Assembly (NCBI GenBank): GCA_003345555.1
Contig: PRDJ01000028.1
Coordinates: 1-6,209, forward strand
Direction: 5' to 3'
Source: Candidatus Thorarchaeota archaeon
GTDB lineage: Archaea > Asgardarchaeota > Thorarchaeia > Thorarchaeales > Thorarchaeaceae
Length of the DNA: 6,209 nt
Shown piece by piece: positions 3-6,209 of the stretch. The notes under the pieces were generated by a model. The model was not told the origin of the DNA, did no database searches, and saw only the letters and a program-made list of their open reading frames with translations. How positions within the stretch are numbered: position 1 is the first letter of the stretch; every line of letters starts with the position of its first letter. A program made the translations under genes and the position numbers.

Positions 3-407
3 CTGCTGACACCATCACGTGCTTTGATATTCCCGCTGTTCTGGGCTGTGTTCCTAATCTACTTCCTGATTGATAGCATGTGGTTGATGGGCATTTTGAG
101 GACCGGGTCTCAGGGCAACTGGAAGATCGCCCAGACCAAGTGGACGTTGAAGGCGATGTTCATCAAGTGCATACTCTATCTTATCGTGATAGCAGTTGAC
201 TACGGTGTGGGCTTGGCTACTGGGAGGCCGCTCTTCCCTGGCTTACTGGGCTTCTCGCTCCTGTTCTTGTACGCATTCGTGCCCTATTTCGCAACGAGCA
301 CTGTCATTACTGCTTGGGGGTACAGGGTAACAGGCCACCATTACCTAGGAGCCATGCTCAATGGCTTGTTGTTCGCATGGGTTCTTGCGGCAGCATTGCC
401 TCTGTAG
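3..407 (+). CDS. 3' end of a multi-pass membrane protein, 5'-truncated by the window edge; resembles the C-terminal membrane region of membrane-anchored alpha/beta-hydrolase-type proteins
   Basis: The frame is open from nt 3 (LLTPSRALIFPLFWAVFLIYFLID...), so the TTG at 24 used by the track is probably internal. There are about four hydrophobic segments, ending YRVTGHHYLGAMLNGLLFAWVLAAALPL-TAG(405-407). The hydrolase family link is recalled resemblance only; no catalytic domain is visible in the window. Confidence 0.7.
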   Translation: MLTPSRALIFPLFWAVFLIYFLIDSMWLMGILRTGSQGNWKIAQTKWTLKAMFIKCILYLIVIAVDYGVGLATGRPLFPGLLGFSLLFLYAFVPYFATSTVITAWGYRVTGHHYLGAMLNGLLFAWVLAAALPL

Positions 408-482: not shown

Positions 483-1388
483 CTAAGAACCTCTATGTGT
501 GAAGAGCCACTCAGTCAGGCCGGTTCCCTTCCTTTTCTGTTTCCCGTACTCATGCATGGCCATATTCTCGAAAAGATCCGTTGAGCCACCGGGGAACTGT
601 CTTGAGAATTTGACAAAGGAAGTCGGTGATATCAACACAGACTCAAGTGTGTAGTTGGACCCATCCACACCCGACACGTGGGTGGTTGCTCGGATAGGCA
701 TTTGCTCCTTGCCGCTAGAGAAGCCGGTCTCCACTTCAACACTCGAAATTGGCATGTTTCCGCGTCGCGATGATATGAATCCAGAAGAGTGAACTTGCCC
801 CCTGACAATGTCGCGCCTTAGTCCAATGGAGAATGTATCGAACTGAGCATGAAGTGCGTACCAGCCCTCGATGTGCCAGTCGCGAGCACCCCAACTCTTG
901 TCGCGCTCCCCGAGCCCGTTAATTCTGACTCGCTGGCCGTCAGAAAACTGAATTGTGCCGGTAACACTCTCAGACTGTTCAAAGTGGCCACTCCATGATG
1001 TACCACTTCCCGTGCCGAAGTCATACACTGGAAACCGGGCCTTCCACCTCAAATCGACTGCTGTGTTCTCCCCATGAAAAGTGACTCTCCACTCGTTGAG
1101 TGGCTTTACGAGTTCATAGGCAAGATGACTGTCGGCAAGAGACTCCACGAAACTCTCTGGAATTGGTCCATCCGGCTCTACAAAGTATGTTTCGCGTTTG
1201 TCATGATGAAATAGAGCGAATACAAACTCTCTCTTACGAACATTCGGAAGCAAGCCTATGGTGGTGAAGCCGGAGATCCCTCTATCGGCGTCAACGAAGT
1301 TGAAGTAGTAGCTCTCGCGCCAGTCAGGCTGCTCAGAGGGCTTGTGAGCATACTCGTCAGCGATATCAGGTAAAGTCATCTCGGTCAT
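483..1388 (-). CDS. DUF7064/DUF7065-like protein, predicted CrtC/AttH/tocopherol-cyclase-like double beta-barrel; putative lyase, hydratase or cyclase
   Basis: 301-aa ORF with an ATG start 20 nt after the stop of the upstream gene. Motifs typical of this group: DWRESYYFNF, xxPLNEWRVTF, VDLRW, HFEQ...VTGTI, GxGERDKSWGARDW. The sequence is rich in aromatic residues and beta-strand-like segments. Family assigned by motif recognition, without a database search. Confidence 0.7.
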   Translation of the reverse strand: MTEMTLPDIADEYAHKPSEQPDWRESYYFNFVDADRGISGFTTIGLLPNVRKREFVFALFHHDKRETYFVEPDGPIPESFVESLADSHLAYELVKPLNEWRVTFHGENTAVDLRWKARFPVYDFGTGSGTSWSGHFEQSESVTGTIQFSDGQRVRINGLGERDKSWGARDWHIEGWYALHAQFDTFSIGLRRDIVRGQVHSSGFISSRRGNMPISSVEVETGFSSGKEQMPIRATTHVSGVDGSNYTLESVLISPTSFVKFSRQFPGGSTDLFENMAMHEYGKQKRKGTGLTEWLFTHRGS

Positions 1389-1408: not shown

Positions 1409-2614
1409 TTACTCTGGAAGGAGATAGAGTGTGGGATCCTTATCCTGTTCCTCCTGCTCTCGAAACATTCTGAAGAATGCAGGGTCTGCATCAACCTCCA
1501 TGAAGATTGGCAGGTACTCGTCCAGAACTTTCGGTGAAAGGCCCCAGTCAATCTTCTGCGTTATGCCAACTTGATTCGTATATCTTGCAAAGCCCCTCCA
1601 ATAAGCAATGGCTCCAGCAGTAAGAAGCTGCTTTCTGTCCCACCCTGCAAACTTCATGTAAAGCTCTGCTTGGGCCTTGTCTGCGGCTTCGCCATAGGCA
1701 GAAAGCTCGTCGAGACCCAACGGAACAATCTTGGCGCCACGCTTCGCGTACGCCATCATCTTCGTTACCAGTCCCGCATACTCAGTTGGTTCAATTGTCA
1801 TCGTACCGACATCATTAAACTTTGCAGTCGCACCCTTTAGAACCATGCCAATACCCAATGTGGATGAAGGGAGCTTGGCCTCGGTATTGGACCACGGCAT
1901 CCAGAGTTCGCCTTTTCCGTCGTGCAGGTTCGTGTACTCCGAAACAACTAGAACCTCACCCTTGTCTAGTGGGTATGGTCCATGGTCTGTGATCTTCGCC
2001 CGTGCCTCACACTCGTCCATGAATGCATACAGGTCCACAGAACCAACAGCACGTCTGGCCTTGCTGACCTGTACTTCATTAACCGGCTGCATGCGATCGA
2101 GCAACCACCCGACGGTCTTCCTGTCAAACGCCAGATTTACGCCGCCCGAAGCTGAGACCGTCGGCTTACCTGTGTTGAAGTAGTTCGTGGCGAGTCTGTA
2201 CCAGTTGTCTAGCATAAAGAGCCACTGCTCGCGTTTCTCCTTGGGCTCCTTCGATGCGTCGCCCTCGCACTTGTTGAAAACGACTCCCATCCTTGCAAGA
2301 GAGTAGTAGAGCCACAGGTAGGTTATAGAGAGAGCTTGAACCTCTGAGAGCAAAGTCTTGCTTCTCTTTGCTAGCTCCTCAGCCGATATCTTCTGCCAAA
2401 CCTGCTTCATCACGTCGTAGAGACATGCATACGTCTGGTAGAATGCGACACAAATGTACGCATTGACGGGGAAGAGCTTTGATTCAAGCAGACCCCGTTC
2501 CATCAGTATATTTGAGAAGACTGACGAAAGGTGAGTAATCTGTTTGTTCGCGTCTCGAACTTGCAACCAAATCACAACTCCGTGCAGAATCGCGCCCGCG
2601 TTCTGAAAACGCAT
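1409..2614 (-). CDS. Uncharacterised soluble protein (~385-401 aa), candidate acceptor-binding subunit of a split PEP-utiliser/dikinase system
   Basis: Long 401-aa ORF with natural composition and no clear transmembrane segment. Conserved-looking blocks: ESKLFPVNAY, ECEARAKITDHGPYPL, LWMPWS, FNDVGT...EPTEY. Start is uncertain: ATG 2614 (GAGGTG only 2 nt upstream) or TTG 2566 (GGAGTTGTGAT 4 nt upstream, giving MQVRDANKQI...). Function is inferred from gene context. Confidence 0.75.
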   Translation of the reverse strand: MRFQNAGAILHGVVIWLQVRDANKQITHLSSVFSNILMERGLLESKLFPVNAYICVAFYQTYACLYDVMKQVWQKISAEELAKRSKTLLSEVQALSITYLWLYYSLARMGVVFNKCEGDASKEPKEKREQWLFMLDNWYRLATNYFNTGKPTVSASGGVNLAFDRKTVGWLLDRMQPVNEVQVSKARRAVGSVDLYAFMDECEARAKITDHGPYPLDKGEVLVVSEYTNLHDGKGELWMPWSNTEAKLPSSTLGIGMVLKGATAKFNDVGTMTIEPTEYAGLVTKMMAYAKRGAKIVPLGLDELSAYGEAADKAQAELYMKFAGWDRKQLLTAGAIAYWRGFARYTNQVGITQKIDWGLSPKVLDEYLPIFMEVDADPAFFRMFREQEEQDKDPTLYLLPE

Positions 2615-2655
2615 CCCACCTCTGAGGCAATATTAAACGTTTCAGACCTTCAGAT

Positions 2656-2665
2656 GATATATATC
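2656..2665. promoter_or_regulatory. Palindromic TATA-like element GATATATATC in the divergent intergenic region
   Basis: Perfect 10-bp palindrome about 40 nt upstream of ATG 2614 on the minus strand. This spacing is compatible with an archaeal TATA box plus a short 5' UTR. A second minus-strand candidate, TTTAATAT, lies near 2631-2638. Confidence 0.35.
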
Positions 2666-2725
2666 GGCGGGTTTCGATTAATCAACTGTATCTTGGCATC
2701 CGAGTGATAAAATGGCACTAAGAAT

Positions 2726-2755
2726 GCGCCAGTCTTTTAAGACACCTTCTGGCGC
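2726..2755. promoter_or_regulatory. Inverted repeat enclosing a TATA-like box (candidate operator/promoter of the rightward operon)
   Basis: GCGCCAG(2726-2732)-16 nt-CTGGCGC(2749-2755). Inside it, GTCTT-TT-AAGAC (2732-2743) contains CTTTTAAG (2734-2741), about 35-50 nt upstream of the start at 2776 or 2791. Confidence 0.4.
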
Positions 2756-2775
2756 TGTGCGAAAAAGCAGACCTG

Positions 2776-3141
2776 ATGGAACTGACTGCCTTGAGAAGAG
2801 TGGGACAAGGATTGATCACCCTGAAGCTCAGCGCCGAAGGGGAGATGAGAGTCGTCAAATCAATCCAAGATGTCGTCCGGCTTTGGAAGGAGGGACCTGA
2901 AGGCAAGATAGCTCTTGTTGAAGATGCAGGTACGACAACTCTCGCACCAGTATTGTCCAAACTGGCAGGTGTGGTCTGCACATCCGGGGCCCTTGGCTCG
3001 CATCTAGCTATCGTTACACGTGAATTCCAGATTCCCGCACTCATGGGAACTAAGCTTGAGACATCAGAGAGCTTGGATAGAAGAAGAGTCGTCATCAAAC
3101 CTGAAGAAGGCACTGGCGGTGTCCTTCTGGTCTCTGACTAA
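2776..3141 (+). CDS. Stand-alone PEP-utilising enzyme mobile (phospho-histidine swivel) domain protein
   Basis: 121-aa ORF. GVVCTSGALGSHLAIVTREFQIPALMG matches the PEP-utiliser signature (TxxGGxTSHAAIVARExGIP); the catalytic His is codon CAT at 3001-3003. Alternative start TTG 2791 (MRRVGQG..., preceded by GGAACTGA plus 5 nt). Confidence 0.9.
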   Translation: MELTALRRVGQGLITLKLSAEGEMRVVKSIQDVVRLWKEGPEGKIALVEDAGTTTLAPVLSKLAGVVCTSGALGSHLAIVTREFQIPALMGTKLETSESLDRRRVVIKPEEGTGGVLLVSD

Positions 3142-3181: not shown

Positions 3182-4198
3182 TTGCCTCGTTATAACTCAC
3201 CAACCAAGTCATCGGGGTCAACACGGTCATGCATTTCCTTTTTCGAGACGATAGGCGATGACGACTTGGAAAGATTCGGCGGCAAGGCAGTGAATCTTGC
3301 TCGGCTACGCAGGGCAGGATTGAAAGTCCCAATCGGGTTCTCCATATCATCGGAGTGTTTCTCTGAGTTTCTGGCCGGTCTCGATGGATCGGACAGAATA
3401 TTGCAGCAGCTGGAATCGGCCACGGACTTGGAAGAAGCCCTGAATTGCGCTGCCAATCTTGAAAGCCTCGGTTCATCTTGGAGAATGTCCGGCGAAACCA
3501 AGAAACAGATCATAGATGCATTTACGCTACTGAGATCGATGGTACATGAACACGGTGCGGGATATGCGGTTCGGTCGTCAGCAAACGTCGAGGACAGTAG
3601 GCATATCTCGTTTGCAGGTCAGGCAGAGAGTTTCTTGTGTGTCAATGGAACTGAGAATGTCATTGATTCTGTTAGAAGAACCTGGCAGTCAGCCGTCTCC
3701 TTCCGCTCAGCTCTCTACCTGCGTGAAATGGGGGTGCCCCTAAGCAGCGTGAAGATGGGTGTAATCGTGCAAGTGATGGTTGACGCAGATATTTCAGGTG
3801 TCATGTTTACAGCCAACACTGTAACGAATGACCCCTCTCAAATCATCATCGAATCCACATGGGGCTTAGGAGAACCGTTGGTCTCAGGGAAAGTAATCCC
3901 AGATACCTTCTTGCTTCATAGGAAACCTTTGAAAATCGTGCAGCGCCTGCTTGGGTCAAAGGCTACAATCGCCACTATCGCCATGTCCAACCAGCAGCAA
4001 CGAATCATGCTTGAGGACACCCCCTTGAGTAAACGAACTGCGTTTACCTTGGATGATGCCGAACTGCTGAACCTAGCTCGATTGGGTATGAAGGTGGAGA
4101 ACATACTGGGTGGTCCTCAAGACATAGAGTGGTGTATGAAAGACTCTCAACTTATTGTGCTCCAAGCAAGACCAGTGACAACAATGAAGTCATGCTAA
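3182..4198 (+). CDS. Stand-alone PEP synthase/pyruvate phosphate dikinase-type N-terminal ATP-grasp (PPDK_N) protein
   Basis: 338-aa ORF with a TTG start; an in-frame TAA at 3173 fixes the upstream limit. All hallmark motifs are present: FGGKAVNL, YAVRSSANVED...SFAGQ, MGVIVQVMV...SGVMFT, ESTWGLGEPLVSG...PD, PQDIEW...LQARPVT. It ends 5 residues after ARPVT with no His or acceptor domain, so it is not a complete ppsA. Confidence 0.93.
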   Translation: MPRYNSPTKSSGSTRSCISFFETIGDDDLERFGGKAVNLARLRRAGLKVPIGFSISSECFSEFLAGLDGSDRILQQLESATDLEEALNCAANLESLGSSWRMSGETKKQIIDAFTLLRSMVHEHGAGYAVRSSANVEDSRHISFAGQAESFLCVNGTENVIDSVRRTWQSAVSFRSALYLREMGVPLSSVKMGVIVQVMVDADISGVMFTANTVTNDPSQIIIESTWGLGEPLVSGKVIPDTFLLHRKPLKIVQRLLGSKATIATIAMSNQQQRIMLEDTPLSKRTAFTLDDAELLNLARLGMKVENILGGPQDIEWCMKDSQLIVLQARPVTTMKSC

Positions 4199-4248: not shown

Positions 4249-4533
4249 TCAACCGTGCATGCGCATCTTGTATAGTGACTCCCCGGGCGAGACCTTGATA
4301 GCCTCCACCGGACACGATGAGACGCATTTCCCACAAGAAGTGCACACGTCCGGCCAGACAGGAGTGACTACCCACTTCTCCGGGTTGTAGGGATCAGGAT
4401 GCTCCTCGAGGGTTGGATGCATGAGGAATACCGCAGGATCGCAGACGTTCAGACACTTCCTGCACTCTCTGGGGTCCATCTTTCCATCAGGTCCGCACTT
4501 CTTGTAGTCGATCTTAATCTTCGTCTTGCCCAT
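4249..4533 (-). CDS. Small ferredoxin-like protein, probable 2[4Fe-4S] with an atypical first cluster motif
   Basis: One canonical motif CTSCGKCVSSCP and one variant C-x10-CRKCLNVC-DP. Start moved from GTG 4542 (track) to ATG 4533 because GAGGTG lies 6 nt upstream of it; 94 aa. Ends with tandem stops TGA TAG. Confidence 0.88.
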   Translation of the reverse strand: MGKTKIKIDYKKCGPDGKMDPRECRKCLNVCDPAVFLMHPTLEEHPDPYNPEKWVVTPVWPDVCTSCGKCVSSCPVEAIKVSPGESLYKMRMHG

Positions 4534-4539
4534 TCGACC

Positions 4540-4545
4540 CACCTC
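4540..4545 (-). promoter_or_regulatory. Shine-Dalgarno site GAGGTG for the small ferredoxin
   Basis: Minus strand reads TAG-AAGAGGTG-GGTCGA-ATG, complementary to the 16S 3' end (AUCACCUCC), immediately after the stop of the upstream gene. Confidence 0.7.
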
Positions 4546-4547
4546 TT

Positions 4548-5417
4548 CTAGAAGTTCCGAGCCTGTCCTGGCACAGACTCCCTCGGTACCAATTGAAGGG
4601 CGTCATTCTTGCACGCGTGACGACAAACGCCACAGCCGAAGCATTTGTCGTGATTGATTATCACCTTGTTAATCGACGGGAGATATCGGAGAGCTCCAAA
4701 CTGACACATCCTTACACACGCCTTGCAGCCTTGGCAGTTATCTCGGTTGACTGTCATGAGATACTCTCCCTTCAGGACTGTCCTCAGACCAAAATCATTC
4801 CTTAGGCGCAGACCTCCACACTCCGGGCTCTCGCATGAGCAAATCGCATTGATGTAAGGGACCGGCTGGAACCAGACAGACGCTACGTATCCTTTCTTGT
4901 TCTGTGTCTCAAGGGCTGCGATTGCTTCCTCTCGATCTAGCTGCCATTTCTCATCGACCGGAATGTATCTTGTGAGCTTTGGAATGATTTGGCTCAAACA
5001 ACCGAAGTTGATGCATACGGCGTCTTTCACTCCCCTCTGCATCCACCTGCAGACGCAGTAGTTCTTTATGATAGGCTCAGCCGCTAAGTTGCCAAGAATA
5101 TGCTGAGCATCCTCAAGGGGAATGACCTGTCCGAAATGACCATCAGCTCTGACCGGATTTCGCCCTGGCTTCTCACTGTGTATCATCTTCTCGGCATTTG
5201 ACCGTAGAAAACGTCCAATGAGCGGCATCTGCATCTTGTATCCTAGACCAATGGAACTGAAGCCCATGATTTTTCGGATGAACAGAGTCTCCATGTTCTT
5301 CCATTGTTCTTCCAAGTACTCTTTCATATTGTATTCGTCTGCAAGCTCATAGGAGTAATTGCGGGCATTCATGTACCACTTGCCGCCAGCACCATGCTTC
5401 ATGCACCAGTCACACAA
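4548..5417 (-). CDS. Multi-cluster iron-sulfur protein: C-terminal 2[4Fe-4S] ferredoxin domain plus Cys-rich N-terminal and central region
   Basis: C-terminal motifs CQGCKACVRMC and CFGCGVCRHAC; additional CDWCMKH, YCVCR, VCINFGC and ICSCESPEC; 17 Cys in total. Likely start is TTG 5417 (MCDWCMKHG..., GGTGAT 4 nt upstream) rather than GTG 5426, which is part of that SD sequence. Confidence 0.88.
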   Translation of the reverse strand: MCDWCMKHGAGGKWYMNARNYSYELADEYNMKEYLEEQWKNMETLFIRKIMGFSSIGLGYKMQMPLIGRFLRSNAEKMIHSEKPGRNPVRADGHFGQVIPLEDAQHILGNLAAEPIIKNYCVCRWMQRGVKDAVCINFGCLSQIIPKLTRYIPVDEKWQLDREEAIAALETQNKKGYVASVWFQPVPYINAICSCESPECGGLRLRNDFGLRTVLKGEYLMTVNRDNCQGCKACVRMCQFGALRYLPSINKVIINHDKCFGCGVCRHACKNDALQLVPRESVPGQARNF

Positions 5418-5421
5418 TGAT

Positions 5422-5427
5422 ATCACC
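5422..5427 (-). promoter_or_regulatory. Archaeal-type Shine-Dalgarno site GGTGAT
   Basis: Minus strand reads CC-GGTGAT-ATCA-TTG-TGT; GGTGAT is complementary to the 16S tail AUCACC. Confidence 0.6.
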
Positions 5428-5477: not shown

Positions 5478-5556
5478 TGTCGTGAGTGCTGCATGACCTC
5501 TTTCGGCAAAAGCCGATTTCTTGAAGAACTATGCAAAAGCAGTACAGACCGCATAT

Positions 5557-5576
5557 AGCACGAAGTGGTTCGTGCT
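5557..5576. repeat. Perfect 8-bp inverted repeat AGCACGAA-GTGG-TTCGTGCT (operator-like site or RNA hairpin)
   Basis: Read directly from the sequence, in the middle of the ~275-bp divergent intergenic region. Confidence 0.6.
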
Positions 5577-5701
5577 CTGTCTCTGATTATCGGAGTTCAA
5601 TAGGAACGAGTCACGCTGATGCCAATGGCGTACACGGAAATTGTTGGTGCTTTTATTGTATAGTAACGAACACTGCGACAAATCACAGAGGAAGAGACTG
5701 C

Positions 5702-6209
5702 ATGCAGCTGACCATTGACCTAGCATCATTTGCGAATCTGTCGACCTCAGTATTCTCGATTACCATCGCGGTATTTCTCATCTCAGTGTGGGTCAGGCAG
5801 AAGAACCACCTGTACACAGACTTGCCGCTATTGTTCGGAGTAATGTTCATGGCACAAGCCCTCAATAGCATCGTAAGGACGCTCCCAACCCTCGGAATAA
5901 TCGAAGCATCGCTTCTGCTCTTCCGGCTTCGCACATTGGTCATACTCGCGGTCGTCTTCCCATTGGCCCTAGTTGTCCTTCATATCTGGTTGCCAAGAAT
6001 ACGGGACAAGTACTCGAGAGTGCTTGGTGTCCTCGCAGCCTACTGGATTGTGGTCACCACACTCGCGCCATCGGAGGACCTCATAATGCTCCTCTGCATA
6101 CCGATTCTGCTGGTTCTTGATCTTGCCATGATCGTGACCTTCTCCATAACATGGAAGACAGGCAGACTCAAAGAGGTTAGGAGCAGTCTAATGGTTCTTG
6201 CCTTTCTCC
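5702..6209 (+). CDS. Multi-pass membrane protein of unknown function, 3'-truncated by the window edge (absent from the ORF track)
   Basis: Manual translation from ATG 5702 is open to the window end: MQLTIDLASFANLSTSVFSITIAVFLISVWVRQKNHLYTDLPLLFGVMFMAQALNSIV...LVILAVVFPLALVVLHIW...VLGVLAAYWIVVTTLA...LIMLLCIPILLVLDLAMIVTFSITWKTGRLKEVRSSLMVLAFL. At least five hydrophobic helices are separated by basic loops. A purine-rich GAGGAAGAG lies upstream. Confidence 0.85.
   Translation, partial: MQLTIDLASFANLSTSVFSITIAVFLISVWVRQKNHLYTDLPLLFGVMFMAQALNSIVRTLPTLGIIEASLLLFRLRTLVILAVVFPLALVVLHIWLPRIRDKYSRVLGVLAAYWIVVTTLAPSEDLIMLLCIPILLVLDLAMIVTFSITWKTGRLKEVRSSLMVLAFL

What the first reader, a model, noticed from the sequence alone, without database searches (positions are those of the whole stretch)
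1409..2614. 401-aa protein with enzyme-like motifs and no recognisable domain
Seen: a soluble protein with a predicted helical N-terminal half and a mixed alpha/beta C-terminal half. It carries polar, catalytic-looking blocks (ESKLFPVNAY; DECEARAKITDHGPY; SEYTNL; FNDVGT). I cannot assign a named domain. I recall similar proteins beside short PEP-utiliser mobile-domain genes in bacteria, but this is unverified. Inference: it is a new acceptor-binding or catalytic fold, or a remote homolog of the rifampin-binding or PpsA substrate domain. The E-x-R...HGPY segment is a candidate active site.
Basis: inference. Interest (0 to 1): 0.62.

Follow-up and report, generated by a model that had tools for sequence, protein, structure and literature searches.

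The report
Unknown-fold partner of split dikinase
This Asgard-archaeal gene encodes a conserved protein of no recognisable fold that most likely holds the substrate for a three-piece, ATP-driven phospho-histidine kinase, whose product a neighbouring phosphate-eliminating lyase then turns into an alkene; no member of this protein family has been studied.

Summary
The ORF is real. It lies on the minus strand at 1409..2614 and gives 401 aa at most. Homologues suggest a TTG start at 2566, giving about 385 aa. All four quoted motifs are present.

It belongs to an uncharacterised superfamily of 164 clusters at 50% identity, found in Asgard archaea, Methanomethylicia, Thaumarchaeota, Actinomycetota and Proteobacteria.

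Three lines of context point to its role:
- In 29 of 29 Asgard loci it is followed by a DUF7065 gene. That gene matches 25-phosphosteroid lyase by sequence (E 2.6e-9) and by fold (TM 0.75).
- In 19 of 29 loci it sits beside a stand-alone phospho-His swivel domain, and in 15 of 29 beside a stand-alone ATP-grasp domain.
- Some bacterial proteins fuse the swivel domain directly to this domain.

Elsewhere the same lyase pairs with APH-type kinases, which suggests this module replaces that kinase.

Best reading (about 0.6): it is the acceptor-binding subunit of a three-component dikinase that feeds a phospho-lyase, giving ATP-dependent dehydration.

It is not detectably related to the rifampin-binding/PpsA/HpeH acceptor domain.

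The scan reached a similar reading before on other genomes.

The parts
1409..2566 (-). TARGET: 385-aa protein of an uncharacterised superfamily and the proposed acceptor-binding/phosphotransfer subunit. The longest ORF extends to the ATG at 2614 (401 aa).
   Evidence: It has no Pfam, NCBIfam or PDB match and no fold match.
1973..2008 (-). Superfamily signature segment E203-A-R205-AKITDH-G212-P213-Y214 (numbering of the 401-aa ORF). R108 (codon 2291-2293) is the other near-invariant Arg.
   Evidence: Translation was checked. Conservation across 62 members: R205 100%, E/D203 100%, G212 98%, P213 94%, Y214 98%, R108 94%, H211 53%.
483..1388 (-). DUF7065 / Rv3169-family protein, a relative of 25-phosphosteroid lyase (a phosphate-eliminating C-O lyase). 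It lies 20 nt downstream of TARGET on the same strand.
   Evidence: Pfam PF23213 E 1.1e-13. The profile hits PDB 9fzn/9g2i/9g4c at E 2.6e-9 with a shared RDxSWGxR block. The AF2 model (pLDDT 91.5) has 9g4c_B as its best Foldseek hit, E 2.7e-14, TM 0.75. It is adjacent to TARGET in 29 of 29 Asgard places.
2567..2775 (.). Divergent intergenic region between the TARGET-lyase pair and the swivel/ATP-grasp pair. It holds A/T-rich stretches and is presumed to carry the promoters.
   Evidence: Sequence read. The divergent layout is kept in family f1 loci. Promoter function is inferred only.
2776..3141 (+). Stand-alone phospho-His swivel (PEP-utilizers mobile) domain of 121 aa. The catalytic His76 lies in GSHLAIVTRE (codon 3001-3003).
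   Evidence: PF00391 E 4.5e-11. Translations. The His is invariant in 9 partner proteins.
3182..4198 (+). Stand-alone PEP-synthase-type ATP-grasp (PPDK_N) protein of about 338 aa. There is no swivel domain and no pyruvate-binding barrel.
   Evidence: PF01326 E 9.7e-77. It matches the N-terminal thirds of the PEP synthase, RPH and PigC models.
4249..4542 (-). Small 2x[4Fe-4S] ferredoxin of 97 aa. It is a frequent but not constant neighbour.
   Evidence: Fer4 families. It recurs in 7 of the 16 large loci.
4548..5426 (-). Fe-S protein with a Cys-rich N-terminal domain of about 220 aa and unknown family, plus a C-terminal 2x[4Fe-4S] domain. It is a frequent neighbour.
   Evidence: The Atlas search of the N-domain returned only unnamed clusters.

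Best explanation
P0001 is the acceptor-side subunit of a dikinase split into three proteins.

Proposed steps:
1. The ATP-grasp protein (3182..4198) binds ATP and charges His76 of the free swivel domain (2776..3141). This would follow PEP synthase, RPH and HpeHI chemistry, in which ATP gives AMP + Pi + His~P.
2. The swivel domain docks on P0001.
3. P0001 binds a so far unknown, probably hydrophobic alcohol and catalyses phosphoryl transfer to it. The invariant Arg205 and Arg108, the acidic residue 203 and the G-P-Y214 loop would form the site.
4. The co-transcribed DUF7065 protein, a 25-phosphosteroid-lyase relative, eliminates the phosphate to leave an alkene.

The net reaction is an ATP-driven dehydration of an unreactive (possibly tertiary) hydroxyl group.

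Shown here:
- The identities of the ATP-grasp domain, the swivel domain and the lyase.
- The conserved linkage of the genes.
- The natural swivel-TARGET fusions.
- The conserved motif.

Inferred:
- That P0001 binds the acceptor.
- The chemistry and the nature of the substrate.
- That the Fe-S proteins act downstream.
For: (1) Neighbourhood. In 29 distinct Asgard places holding a family member, the lyase gene is adjacent in 29, the swivel gene in 19 and the ATP-grasp gene in 15. This includes deep paralogues of about 33% identity, and one tandem array swivel-TARGET-swivel-TARGET with a single ATP-grasp gene.

(2) Independent bacterial lineages keep the same set:
- Rhodococcus sp. 008 plasmid: TARGET-swivel-hyp-DUF7065-(PPDK_N+swivel) in one operon.
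- Methylibium petroleiphilum PM1 plasmid: DUF7065-TARGET-hyp-swivel.
- Paraburkholderia: DUF7065 about 1.6 kb from TARGET.
- Croceicoccus: swivel-TARGET-phosphatase.
- R. pyridinivorans: three swivel/TARGET pairs or fusions.

(3) Rosetta-stone fusions. P0161 (516 aa), P0178 (Gordonia otitidis, 575 aa) and P0275 (Citricoccus, 794 aa) carry an N-terminal PF00391 swivel domain followed by the TARGET domain.

(4) Kinase displacement. On other plasmids the DUF7065 lyase sits next to APH/EcKL-type kinases (R. ruber, R. aetherivorans, Sphingopyxis, Diaphorobacter). This recalls the characterised 25-HSK (APH-like) + 25-PSL logic (PMC8449060, PMC11061730). In those loci the kinase takes the place that TARGET and the swivel hold here.

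(5) The lyase assignment rests on both sequence and fold.

(6) The most conserved TARGET residues are two Arg, one acidic residue and a Tyr, which is a plausible phosphoryl-transfer site.

(7) Precedent. In two-component dikinases the ATP-grasp subunit is a separate protein, and the H subunit alone transfers phosphate between acceptors (PMC12167813).

(8) Thermodynamic rationale (inference). Tertiary phosphoesters have an ATP-like transfer potential, and 25-HSK is fully reversible with Keq 0.34 (PMC8449060). An AMP+Pi-forming dikinase would make the step irreversible.
Against: - There is no direct evidence that P0001 binds a small molecule or receives the phosphoryl group.
- In one Asgard family (f19, including a complete genome) the swivel-TARGET genes occur without any stand-alone ATP-grasp. 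The only PPDK_N there is the canonical PEP synthase of about 800 aa. Several bacterial loci also lack one nearby. The phosphoryl donor is therefore not always the neighbouring ATP-grasp, and TARGET could sit on the donor side.
- Ten of the 29 Asgard places show no swivel gene within the DNA examined, though six of those were read only 1.5 kb or less each side.
- The substrate is unknown, and nothing in the archaeal clusters names a pathway.
- Neighbourhood counts come from related genomes and are not independent.
Confidence: 0.6

Rival explanations
1. P0001 is on the donor side or is a relay. It binds a phosphoryl donor other than ATP (for example a high-energy phosphoester, PEP or polyphosphate) and charges the swivel His, or it is itself phosphorylated on a conserved residue (for example Tyr214) as part of a phospho-relay. 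It would not bind the final acceptor.
For: Swivel-TARGET pairs exist without any dedicated ATP-grasp, both in f19 Asgard genomes and in several bacterial loci. The f19 loci carry two divergent TARGET paralogues flanking one swivel gene, as would be expected for one donor site and one acceptor site. Tyr/DSP-phosphatase-family genes recur next to the cluster.
Against: In the window, and in 15 of 29 Asgard places, a PEP-synthase-type ATP-grasp lies right beside the swivel gene. That already supplies a donor site. The lyase needs a phosphoester substrate, and no other kinase is present in the cluster. The phosphatases also occur in APH-type clusters, so they are not specific to a protein relay.
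Confidence: 0.17
2. P0001 is a non-catalytic accessory of the lyase or of the pathway. It could be a carrier or solubiliser of a greasy substrate, a scaffold or a regulator, with phosphotransfer carried out by other components.
For: It is strictly adjacent to the lyase gene (29 of 29), more constant than its adjacency to the swivel gene. The N-terminal half is a large helical bundle. No known catalytic fold was found.
Against: Covalent fusions are to the swivel domain, not to the lyase. Very strong conservation of polar residues (two Arg, Glu/Asp, Tyr) across roughly 20%-identical members is typical of an active site rather than a carrier. APH-type clusters manage without any TARGET homologue.
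Confidence: 0.1
3. P0001 is a highly diverged member of the rifampin-binding-domain family, the acceptor domain of RPH, PpsA, HpeH and CreH. The system would then simply be a further-split PpsAB/HpeHI-type dikinase.
For: The functional context is the same (ATP-grasp + swivel). The size is similar, about 385 aa against about 430 aa. RIF-BD-type domains diverge fast: HpeH is only about 20% identical to RPH (PMC12167813).
Confidence: 0.05

Closest known systems
Two-component small-molecule dikinases HpeHI, CreHI and PpsAB (phenylphosphate synthase), and single-chain rifampin phosphotransferase RPH
   Same: They have a PEP-synthase-type ATP-grasp module, a phospho-His swivel domain with the G-x-H motif, and a separate acceptor-binding module. 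In HpeHI and PpsAB the ATP-grasp is a separate protein (PMC12167813, PMC4844700). The window's ATP-grasp and swivel match these families.
   Different: - Here the swivel domain is a free 121-aa protein, so the system has three components rather than two or one.
- The acceptor module P0001 shows no detectable sequence or fold similarity to the RIF-binding-type domain shared by RPH, HpeH, CreH and PpsA.
- In natural fusions the swivel precedes the acceptor domain instead of following it.
- Known members act on phenols or rifampin, and none is coupled to a phospho-lyase.
25-hydroxysteroid kinase (25-HSK) + 25-phosphosteroid lyase (25-PSL) of Sterolibacterium denitrificans: ATP-dependent dehydration of a tertiary alcohol
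   Same: The logic is a kinase followed by a phosphate-eliminating lyase. The window's DUF7065 protein matches 25-PSL by sequence and fold. Many bacterial DUF7065 genes sit next to APH-type kinases like 25-HSK.
   Different: - The kinase here is not APH-like. It is replaced by ATP-grasp + swivel + P0001.
- It would presumably form AMP + Pi rather than ADP.
- The host is an anaerobic Asgard archaeon, the substrate is unknown, and no Mo-hydroxylase genes are in the window.
- The lyase is only about 14% identical to 25-PSL over the structural alignment.
PEP synthase / pyruvate phosphate dikinase
   Same: The ATP-grasp and swivel domains are the same, and so is the ping-pong phospho-His mechanism.
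   Different: There is no PEP/pyruvate-binding TIM barrel (PEP-utilizers_C) in the window, and P0001 stands in its place. The genome has a separate 891-aa RPH/PRK06241-type enzyme elsewhere.

Membership tests
PEP-synthase/RPH-type phospho-His dikinases (system level) | ATP-grasp nucleotide-binding module (PPDK_N) | tested here: met
   Window 3182..4198 matches PF01326 at E 9.7e-77 and matches the N-terminal parts of the PEP synthase, RPH and PigC NCBIfam models.
PEP-synthase/RPH-type phospho-His dikinases (system level) | Swivel domain with the catalytic His in a G-x-H-(A/L)-A-I-V-x-R-E motif | tested here: met
   Window 2776..3141 matches PF00391 at E 4.5e-11. His76 in GSHLAIVTRE is invariant in 9 partner proteins.
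RIF-binding-domain type acceptor modules (RPH, HpeH, CreH, PpsA) | Detectable profile-profile homology of the acceptor module to the RPH-type central domain | tested here: not met
   hhalign of A1, A2 and A3 against RPH-type central-domain and full-length profiles gives probability 0.1-0.4%. The positive control within the TARGET superfamily gives 100% and 98.7%.
RIF-binding-domain type acceptor modules (RPH, HpeH, CreH, PpsA) | Shared fold with RPH residues 327-754 | tested here: inconclusive
PEP-synthase/RPH-type phospho-His dikinases (system level) | ATP converted to AMP + Pi with transfer of the beta-phosphate via His~P | not testable with these tools
   This needs biochemistry.
25-HSK/25-PSL-type kinase-lyase dehydration systems | Phosphate-eliminating lyase of the 25-PSL (DUF7065/AttH-like) family next to the kinase | tested here: met
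   The A4 profile hits 9fzn/9g4c at E 2.6e-9. The model's best Foldseek hit is 9g4c_B at E 2.7e-14, TM 0.75. The gene is adjacent in 29 of 29 Asgard places.
25-HSK/25-PSL-type kinase-lyase dehydration systems | Kinase of the APH (PF01636) phosphotransferase family | tested here: not met
   No APH hit was found for any window protein. APH/EcKL kinases are found only in the alternative bacterial DUF7065 clusters.
Unnamed TARGET superfamily (this protein) | Signature [ED]-x-R-x6-G-P-Y plus a conserved Arg in the helix-4 'G-R' motif, in a domain of about 370 aa | tested here: met
   E203, R205, G212-P213-Y214 and R108 are all present. Their conservation in 62 members is 94-100%.

The most novel reading that the evidence does not exclude
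P0001 founds a new structural class of phosphoryl-acceptor domains for phospho-His swivel enzymes. With a free swivel protein, a free ATP-grasp and a 25-PSL-like lyase it forms a previously undescribed three-component 'dikinase-dehydratase'. Anaerobic archaea (Asgard, Methanomethylicia) and catabolic plasmids of bacteria would use it to remove unreactive, possibly tertiary, hydroxyl groups from hydrophobic substrates such as isoprenoid-type molecules without oxygen.
Probability: 0.45. Interest if true: 0.78.

Novelty: new variant of a known kind. Interest (0 to 1): 0.66.

Why it matters
Phospho-His swivel dikinases are known with only two kinds of second-substrate module: the PEP/pyruvate barrel and the rifampin-binding-type domain. 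A third, unrelated acceptor module would widen that enzyme class. It would also give names to hundreds of proteins now annotated 'hypothetical' or 'PEP-utilizing enzyme' in archaea and on bacterial catabolic plasmids.

Coupling to a 25-phosphosteroid-lyase relative suggests that ATP-dependent dehydration may be more widespread than thought. Until now this chemistry has been known from one steroid pathway in a denitrifier. It may exist in an energetically stronger AMP-forming version in Asgard archaea, whose catabolic abilities bear on models of their ecology.

The fold itself has no PDB counterpart, so a structure would be informative.

Tried and rejected
- Pfam, NCBIfam, PADLOC and PHROGs scans of P0001 gave nothing (best hits DUF7103 E 0.21 and BagL E 0.18, both noise).
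- PDB sequence search (phmmer) gave no hits at E<=10. The 62-sequence profile search gave only herpesvirus gB at E 0.5, which is noise.
- The ESM Atlas returned no usable hit.
- The word-index search for longer, fused relatives found none. The exhaustive HMMER search did find fusions.
- Selenocysteine idea: the in-frame TGA reported in three homologues lies upstream of the conserved start, not inside the protein. Rejected.
- MarK (UPF0261 aromatic kinase) was checked as a possible characterised relative and is unrelated.
- Literature searches for DUF7065 and Rv3169 gave nothing functional.
- The Atlas search of the Fe-S protein's N-domain returned only unnamed clusters.
- The defence-system and phage readings have no support.

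Full report
**1. What is there**

The 6209-base window is the whole of contig C28 of an Asgard-archaeal genome bin (2.28 Mb, 93% complete). The ORF named in the finding is on the minus strand, 1409..2614, and gives 401 aa from an ATG. The finding gave no strand, and the plus-strand reading is full of stops. All four quoted motif blocks are present.

The real start is probably the TTG at 2566, giving 385 aa:
- Nearly all homologues are 385-392 aa and begin there.
- The same-genus relative has no start codon more than three codons upstream of that point.
- In three relatives a stop lies in the upstream stretch.
- Residues 1-17 are modelled with pLDDT below 50.

**2. The protein itself**

No known family or solved structure matches it by sequence. 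Pfam, NCBIfam, PADLOC and PHROGs give nothing significant. Neither do PDB sequences, whether searched with the single protein or with a 62-sequence profile.

An AlphaFold2 model built from 25 homologues is confident (mean pLDDT 80, pTM 0.82).

The model has no counterpart in the PDB:
- Foldseek's best hit is E 0.07 at TM about 0.1.

**3. The family**

A word-indexed search found 352 relatives. The best 120 are 58-93% identical and are named only 'hypothetical protein'. They come from Thor-, Hod- and Hermodarchaeia and from Methanomethylicia.

An exhaustive HMMER search of 1.84 billion representatives found 164 clusters at E<=1e-3. These include Thaumarchaeota, Burkholderia ambifaria, Gordonia and Citricoccus.

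Across 62 members that are only about 20% identical to the window protein, the conserved positions are as follows (numbering of the 401-aa ORF):

| Position | Conservation |
|---|---|
| R205 | 100% |
| E/D203 | 100% acidic |
| G212 / P213 / Y214 | 98 / 94 / 98% |
| R108 | 94% |
| R40 | 89% |
| H211 (the His of 'HGPY') | 53% |

**4. Context in archaea**

I searched 151 genomes of the phylum and 38 have the gene. I then examined 29 distinct places with my own HMMs.
- A DUF7065 gene is next to the family member in 29 of 29 places, directly downstream on the same strand in most.
- A stand-alone PEP-utilizers swivel gene is adjacent in 19 of 29.
- A stand-alone PPDK_N ATP-grasp gene is adjacent in 15 of 29.

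All loci of the window's own family have the full divergent layout lyase<-TARGET | swivel->ATP-grasp. Most of the larger loci in that family also have a ferredoxin plus a Cys-rich Fe-S protein.

Deep paralogues keep the association:
- The roughly 33%-identical paralogues do.
- The 455-aa forms do.
- One locus reads ATP-grasp | swivel-TARGET-swivel-TARGET | lyase.

The swivel proteins all keep the catalytic His in G-x-H-L-A-I-V-x-R-E, which is His76 in the window.

**5. Context in bacteria and fusions**

Three longer relatives carry an N-terminal PF00391 swivel domain fused to the TARGET domain: a JGI protein of 516 aa, Gordonia otitidis WP_007239118 of 575 aa, and a Citricoccus zhacaiensis protein of 794 aa.

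On plasmids and in genomes the same genes recur together:
- Rhodococcus sp. 008 has TARGET-swivel-hyp-DUF7065-(PPDK_N+swivel) in one operon.
- Methylibium petroleiphilum PM1 has DUF7065-TARGET-hyp-swivel.
- Paraburkholderia has DUF7065 and TARGET about 1.6 kb apart.
- Croceicoccus has swivel-TARGET-Tyr-phosphatase.
- R. pyridinivorans has three swivel/TARGET pairs or fusions plus a PPDK_N+swivel protein.

So the link between TARGET and the swivel domain is shown by conserved neighbourhood in three distant lineages and by covalent fusion.

**6. The neighbour gives the chemistry**

A profile of 13 DUF7065 neighbours hits the PDB entries for 25-phosphosteroid lyase (9FZN, 9G2I, 9G4C) at E 2.6e-9. 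The two share YYFN and RDxSWGxR blocks.

The AlphaFold model of the window's DUF7065 protein has pLDDT 91.5. Its best Foldseek hits are those same entries, at E 2.7e-14 and TM 0.75. These rank ahead of the AttH-like pericyclases and kievitone hydratase.

In Sterolibacterium, 25-PSL eliminates phosphate from a tertiary phosphoester made by the kinase 25-HSK. The pair achieves an ATP-dependent dehydration (PMC8449060, PMC11061730). 25-HSK is a 40-kDa APH-like, ADP-forming and fully reversible kinase with Keq 0.34.

On other bacterial plasmids the DUF7065 gene is indeed next to PF01636 APH or EcKL kinases: R. ruber, R. aetherivorans, Sphingopyxis and Diaphorobacter. Those loci contain no TARGET homologue.

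The lyase therefore has two alternative partners, an APH-type kinase or TARGET + swivel (+ ATP-grasp). That is the pattern of non-orthologous displacement, and it assigns the kinase role to the TARGET module.

**7. Mechanism proposed**

1. The ATP-grasp protein charges His76 of the free swivel protein from ATP.
2. The swivel protein docks on P0001.
3. P0001 binds the alcohol and catalyses transfer. R205, R108, E/D203 and Y214 are the likely phosphoryl-site residues.
4. The lyase expels phosphate and leaves an alkene.

Splitting ATP to AMP + Pi would pull an otherwise near-equilibrium phosphorylation of a hindered alcohol forward. This is an inference from the thermodynamics reported for 25-HSK.

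The precedent for a separate ATP-grasp subunit, and for an acceptor subunit that alone moves phosphate between acceptors, is HpeHI/PpsAB (PMC12167813).

**8. What it is not**

HpeH, CreH and PpsA share the rifampin-binding-type acceptor domain of RPH. The window's genome encodes an 891-aa RPH/PRK06241-type enzyme elsewhere.

I built a profile of its central domain from seven Asgard homologues and compared it with three TARGET profiles. The probability was 0.1-0.4%. The single-sequence test gave 0.19%. The same method gives 100% (E 7e-49) between the Asgard clade and family members of 23% identity or less, and 98.7% against a single remote sequence.

It cannot be formally excluded without a structure.

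**9. Open problems**

- The substrate is unknown.
- In family f19, including a complete genome, the only PPDK_N gene is the canonical PEP synthase. Several bacterial loci also lack an ATP-grasp nearby. There the donor for the swivel His is unexplained. The two flanking TARGET paralogues in f19 raise the possibility that one of them works on the donor side.
- Phosphatase-family genes recur in both TARGET-type and APH-type clusters. Their role is unknown; proofreading of mis-phosphorylated products and regulation are both possible.

**10. Relation to earlier scan notes**

After I had found the lyase match, the scan's notes showed that follow-up agents had reached the same general reading on other genomes. 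One note pointed me to HpeHI/CreHI, which I then read and used.

New here, as far as those notes show:
- The swivel-TARGET fusions.
- The bacterial operons.
- The displacement of APH kinases by the TARGET module.
- The superfamily signature with the non-conserved His.
- The genomes that lack an ATP-grasp.

**Verdict**

P0001 is a real, conserved, uncharacterised family. It is best read as a new acceptor module of a three-component dikinase coupled to a phospho-lyase.

Noticed in passing
L068 (Methylibium petroleiphilum PM1 plasmid RPME01, NC_008826.1 480093-483884): DUF7065-TARGET-hyp-swivel lies about 5 kb upstream of genes for a B12-binding domain protein, an AMP-binding ligase and MeaB. These look like the 2-hydroxyisobutyryl-CoA mutase set of this MTBE/tert-butanol degrader. 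That is a tertiary-alcohol metabolic context and might hint at substrate class.
   Followed up: no
L032:10406-10852, L033:10411-10869, L041:10293-11066, L072:6144-6896: Tyr/dual-specificity phosphatase-family genes recur next to the lyase. This holds both in TARGET-type clusters (Asgard paralogue loci, Croceicoccus) and in an APH-type cluster (Sphingopyxis). Their role is unknown.
   Followed up: partly
L026, L030, L031 (Asgard family f19): The layout is TARGET_B-DUF7065-swivel-TARGET_A, flanked by tandem B12-binding radical SAM genes. These genomes have no stand-alone ATP-grasp at all, only the canonical PEP synthase.
   Followed up: partly
G000:C36:32708-35380 (L040:706-3381, minus): The same genome encodes an 891-aa single-chain RPH/PRK06241-type dikinase (PPDK_N + central domain + C-terminal swivel). 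Its best PDB relatives are Listeria rifampin phosphotransferase 5FBS/5HV1, at E 1e-99.
   Followed up: partly
window 3..407 (+): This is the C-terminal membrane part of a protein cut by the contig end. In the same-genus relative it is a 571-aa alpha/beta-hydrolase fused to a multi-pass membrane domain.
   Followed up: partly
window 5531..6208 (+): A multi-pass membrane protein with no family match, cut by the contig end. It is conserved at this position in the same-genus relative only.
   Followed up: no
window 4548..5426 (-) and 4249..4542 (-): The Cys-rich N-terminal domain of about 220 aa in the Fe-S protein has no Pfam family. With its small ferredoxin partner it recurs beside the cassette in 7 of the 16 large loci, duplicated in one. 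This may be a redox step downstream of the alkene.
   Followed up: partly
L034:10968-12230, L035:12338-14901: The 455-aa TARGET paralogue loci are followed by 2-hydroxyacyl-CoA dehydratase D-component (HGD-D) genes, another dehydration chemistry for unreactive alcohols.
   Followed up: no
L074:1309-1905, L066:16905-17513, L068:8985-9446: Small unannotated proteins of 150-200 aa sit inside the bacterial TARGET/swivel operons. They have no Pfam match and could be an extra subunit. I did not look for an equivalent in the Asgard window.
   Followed up: no
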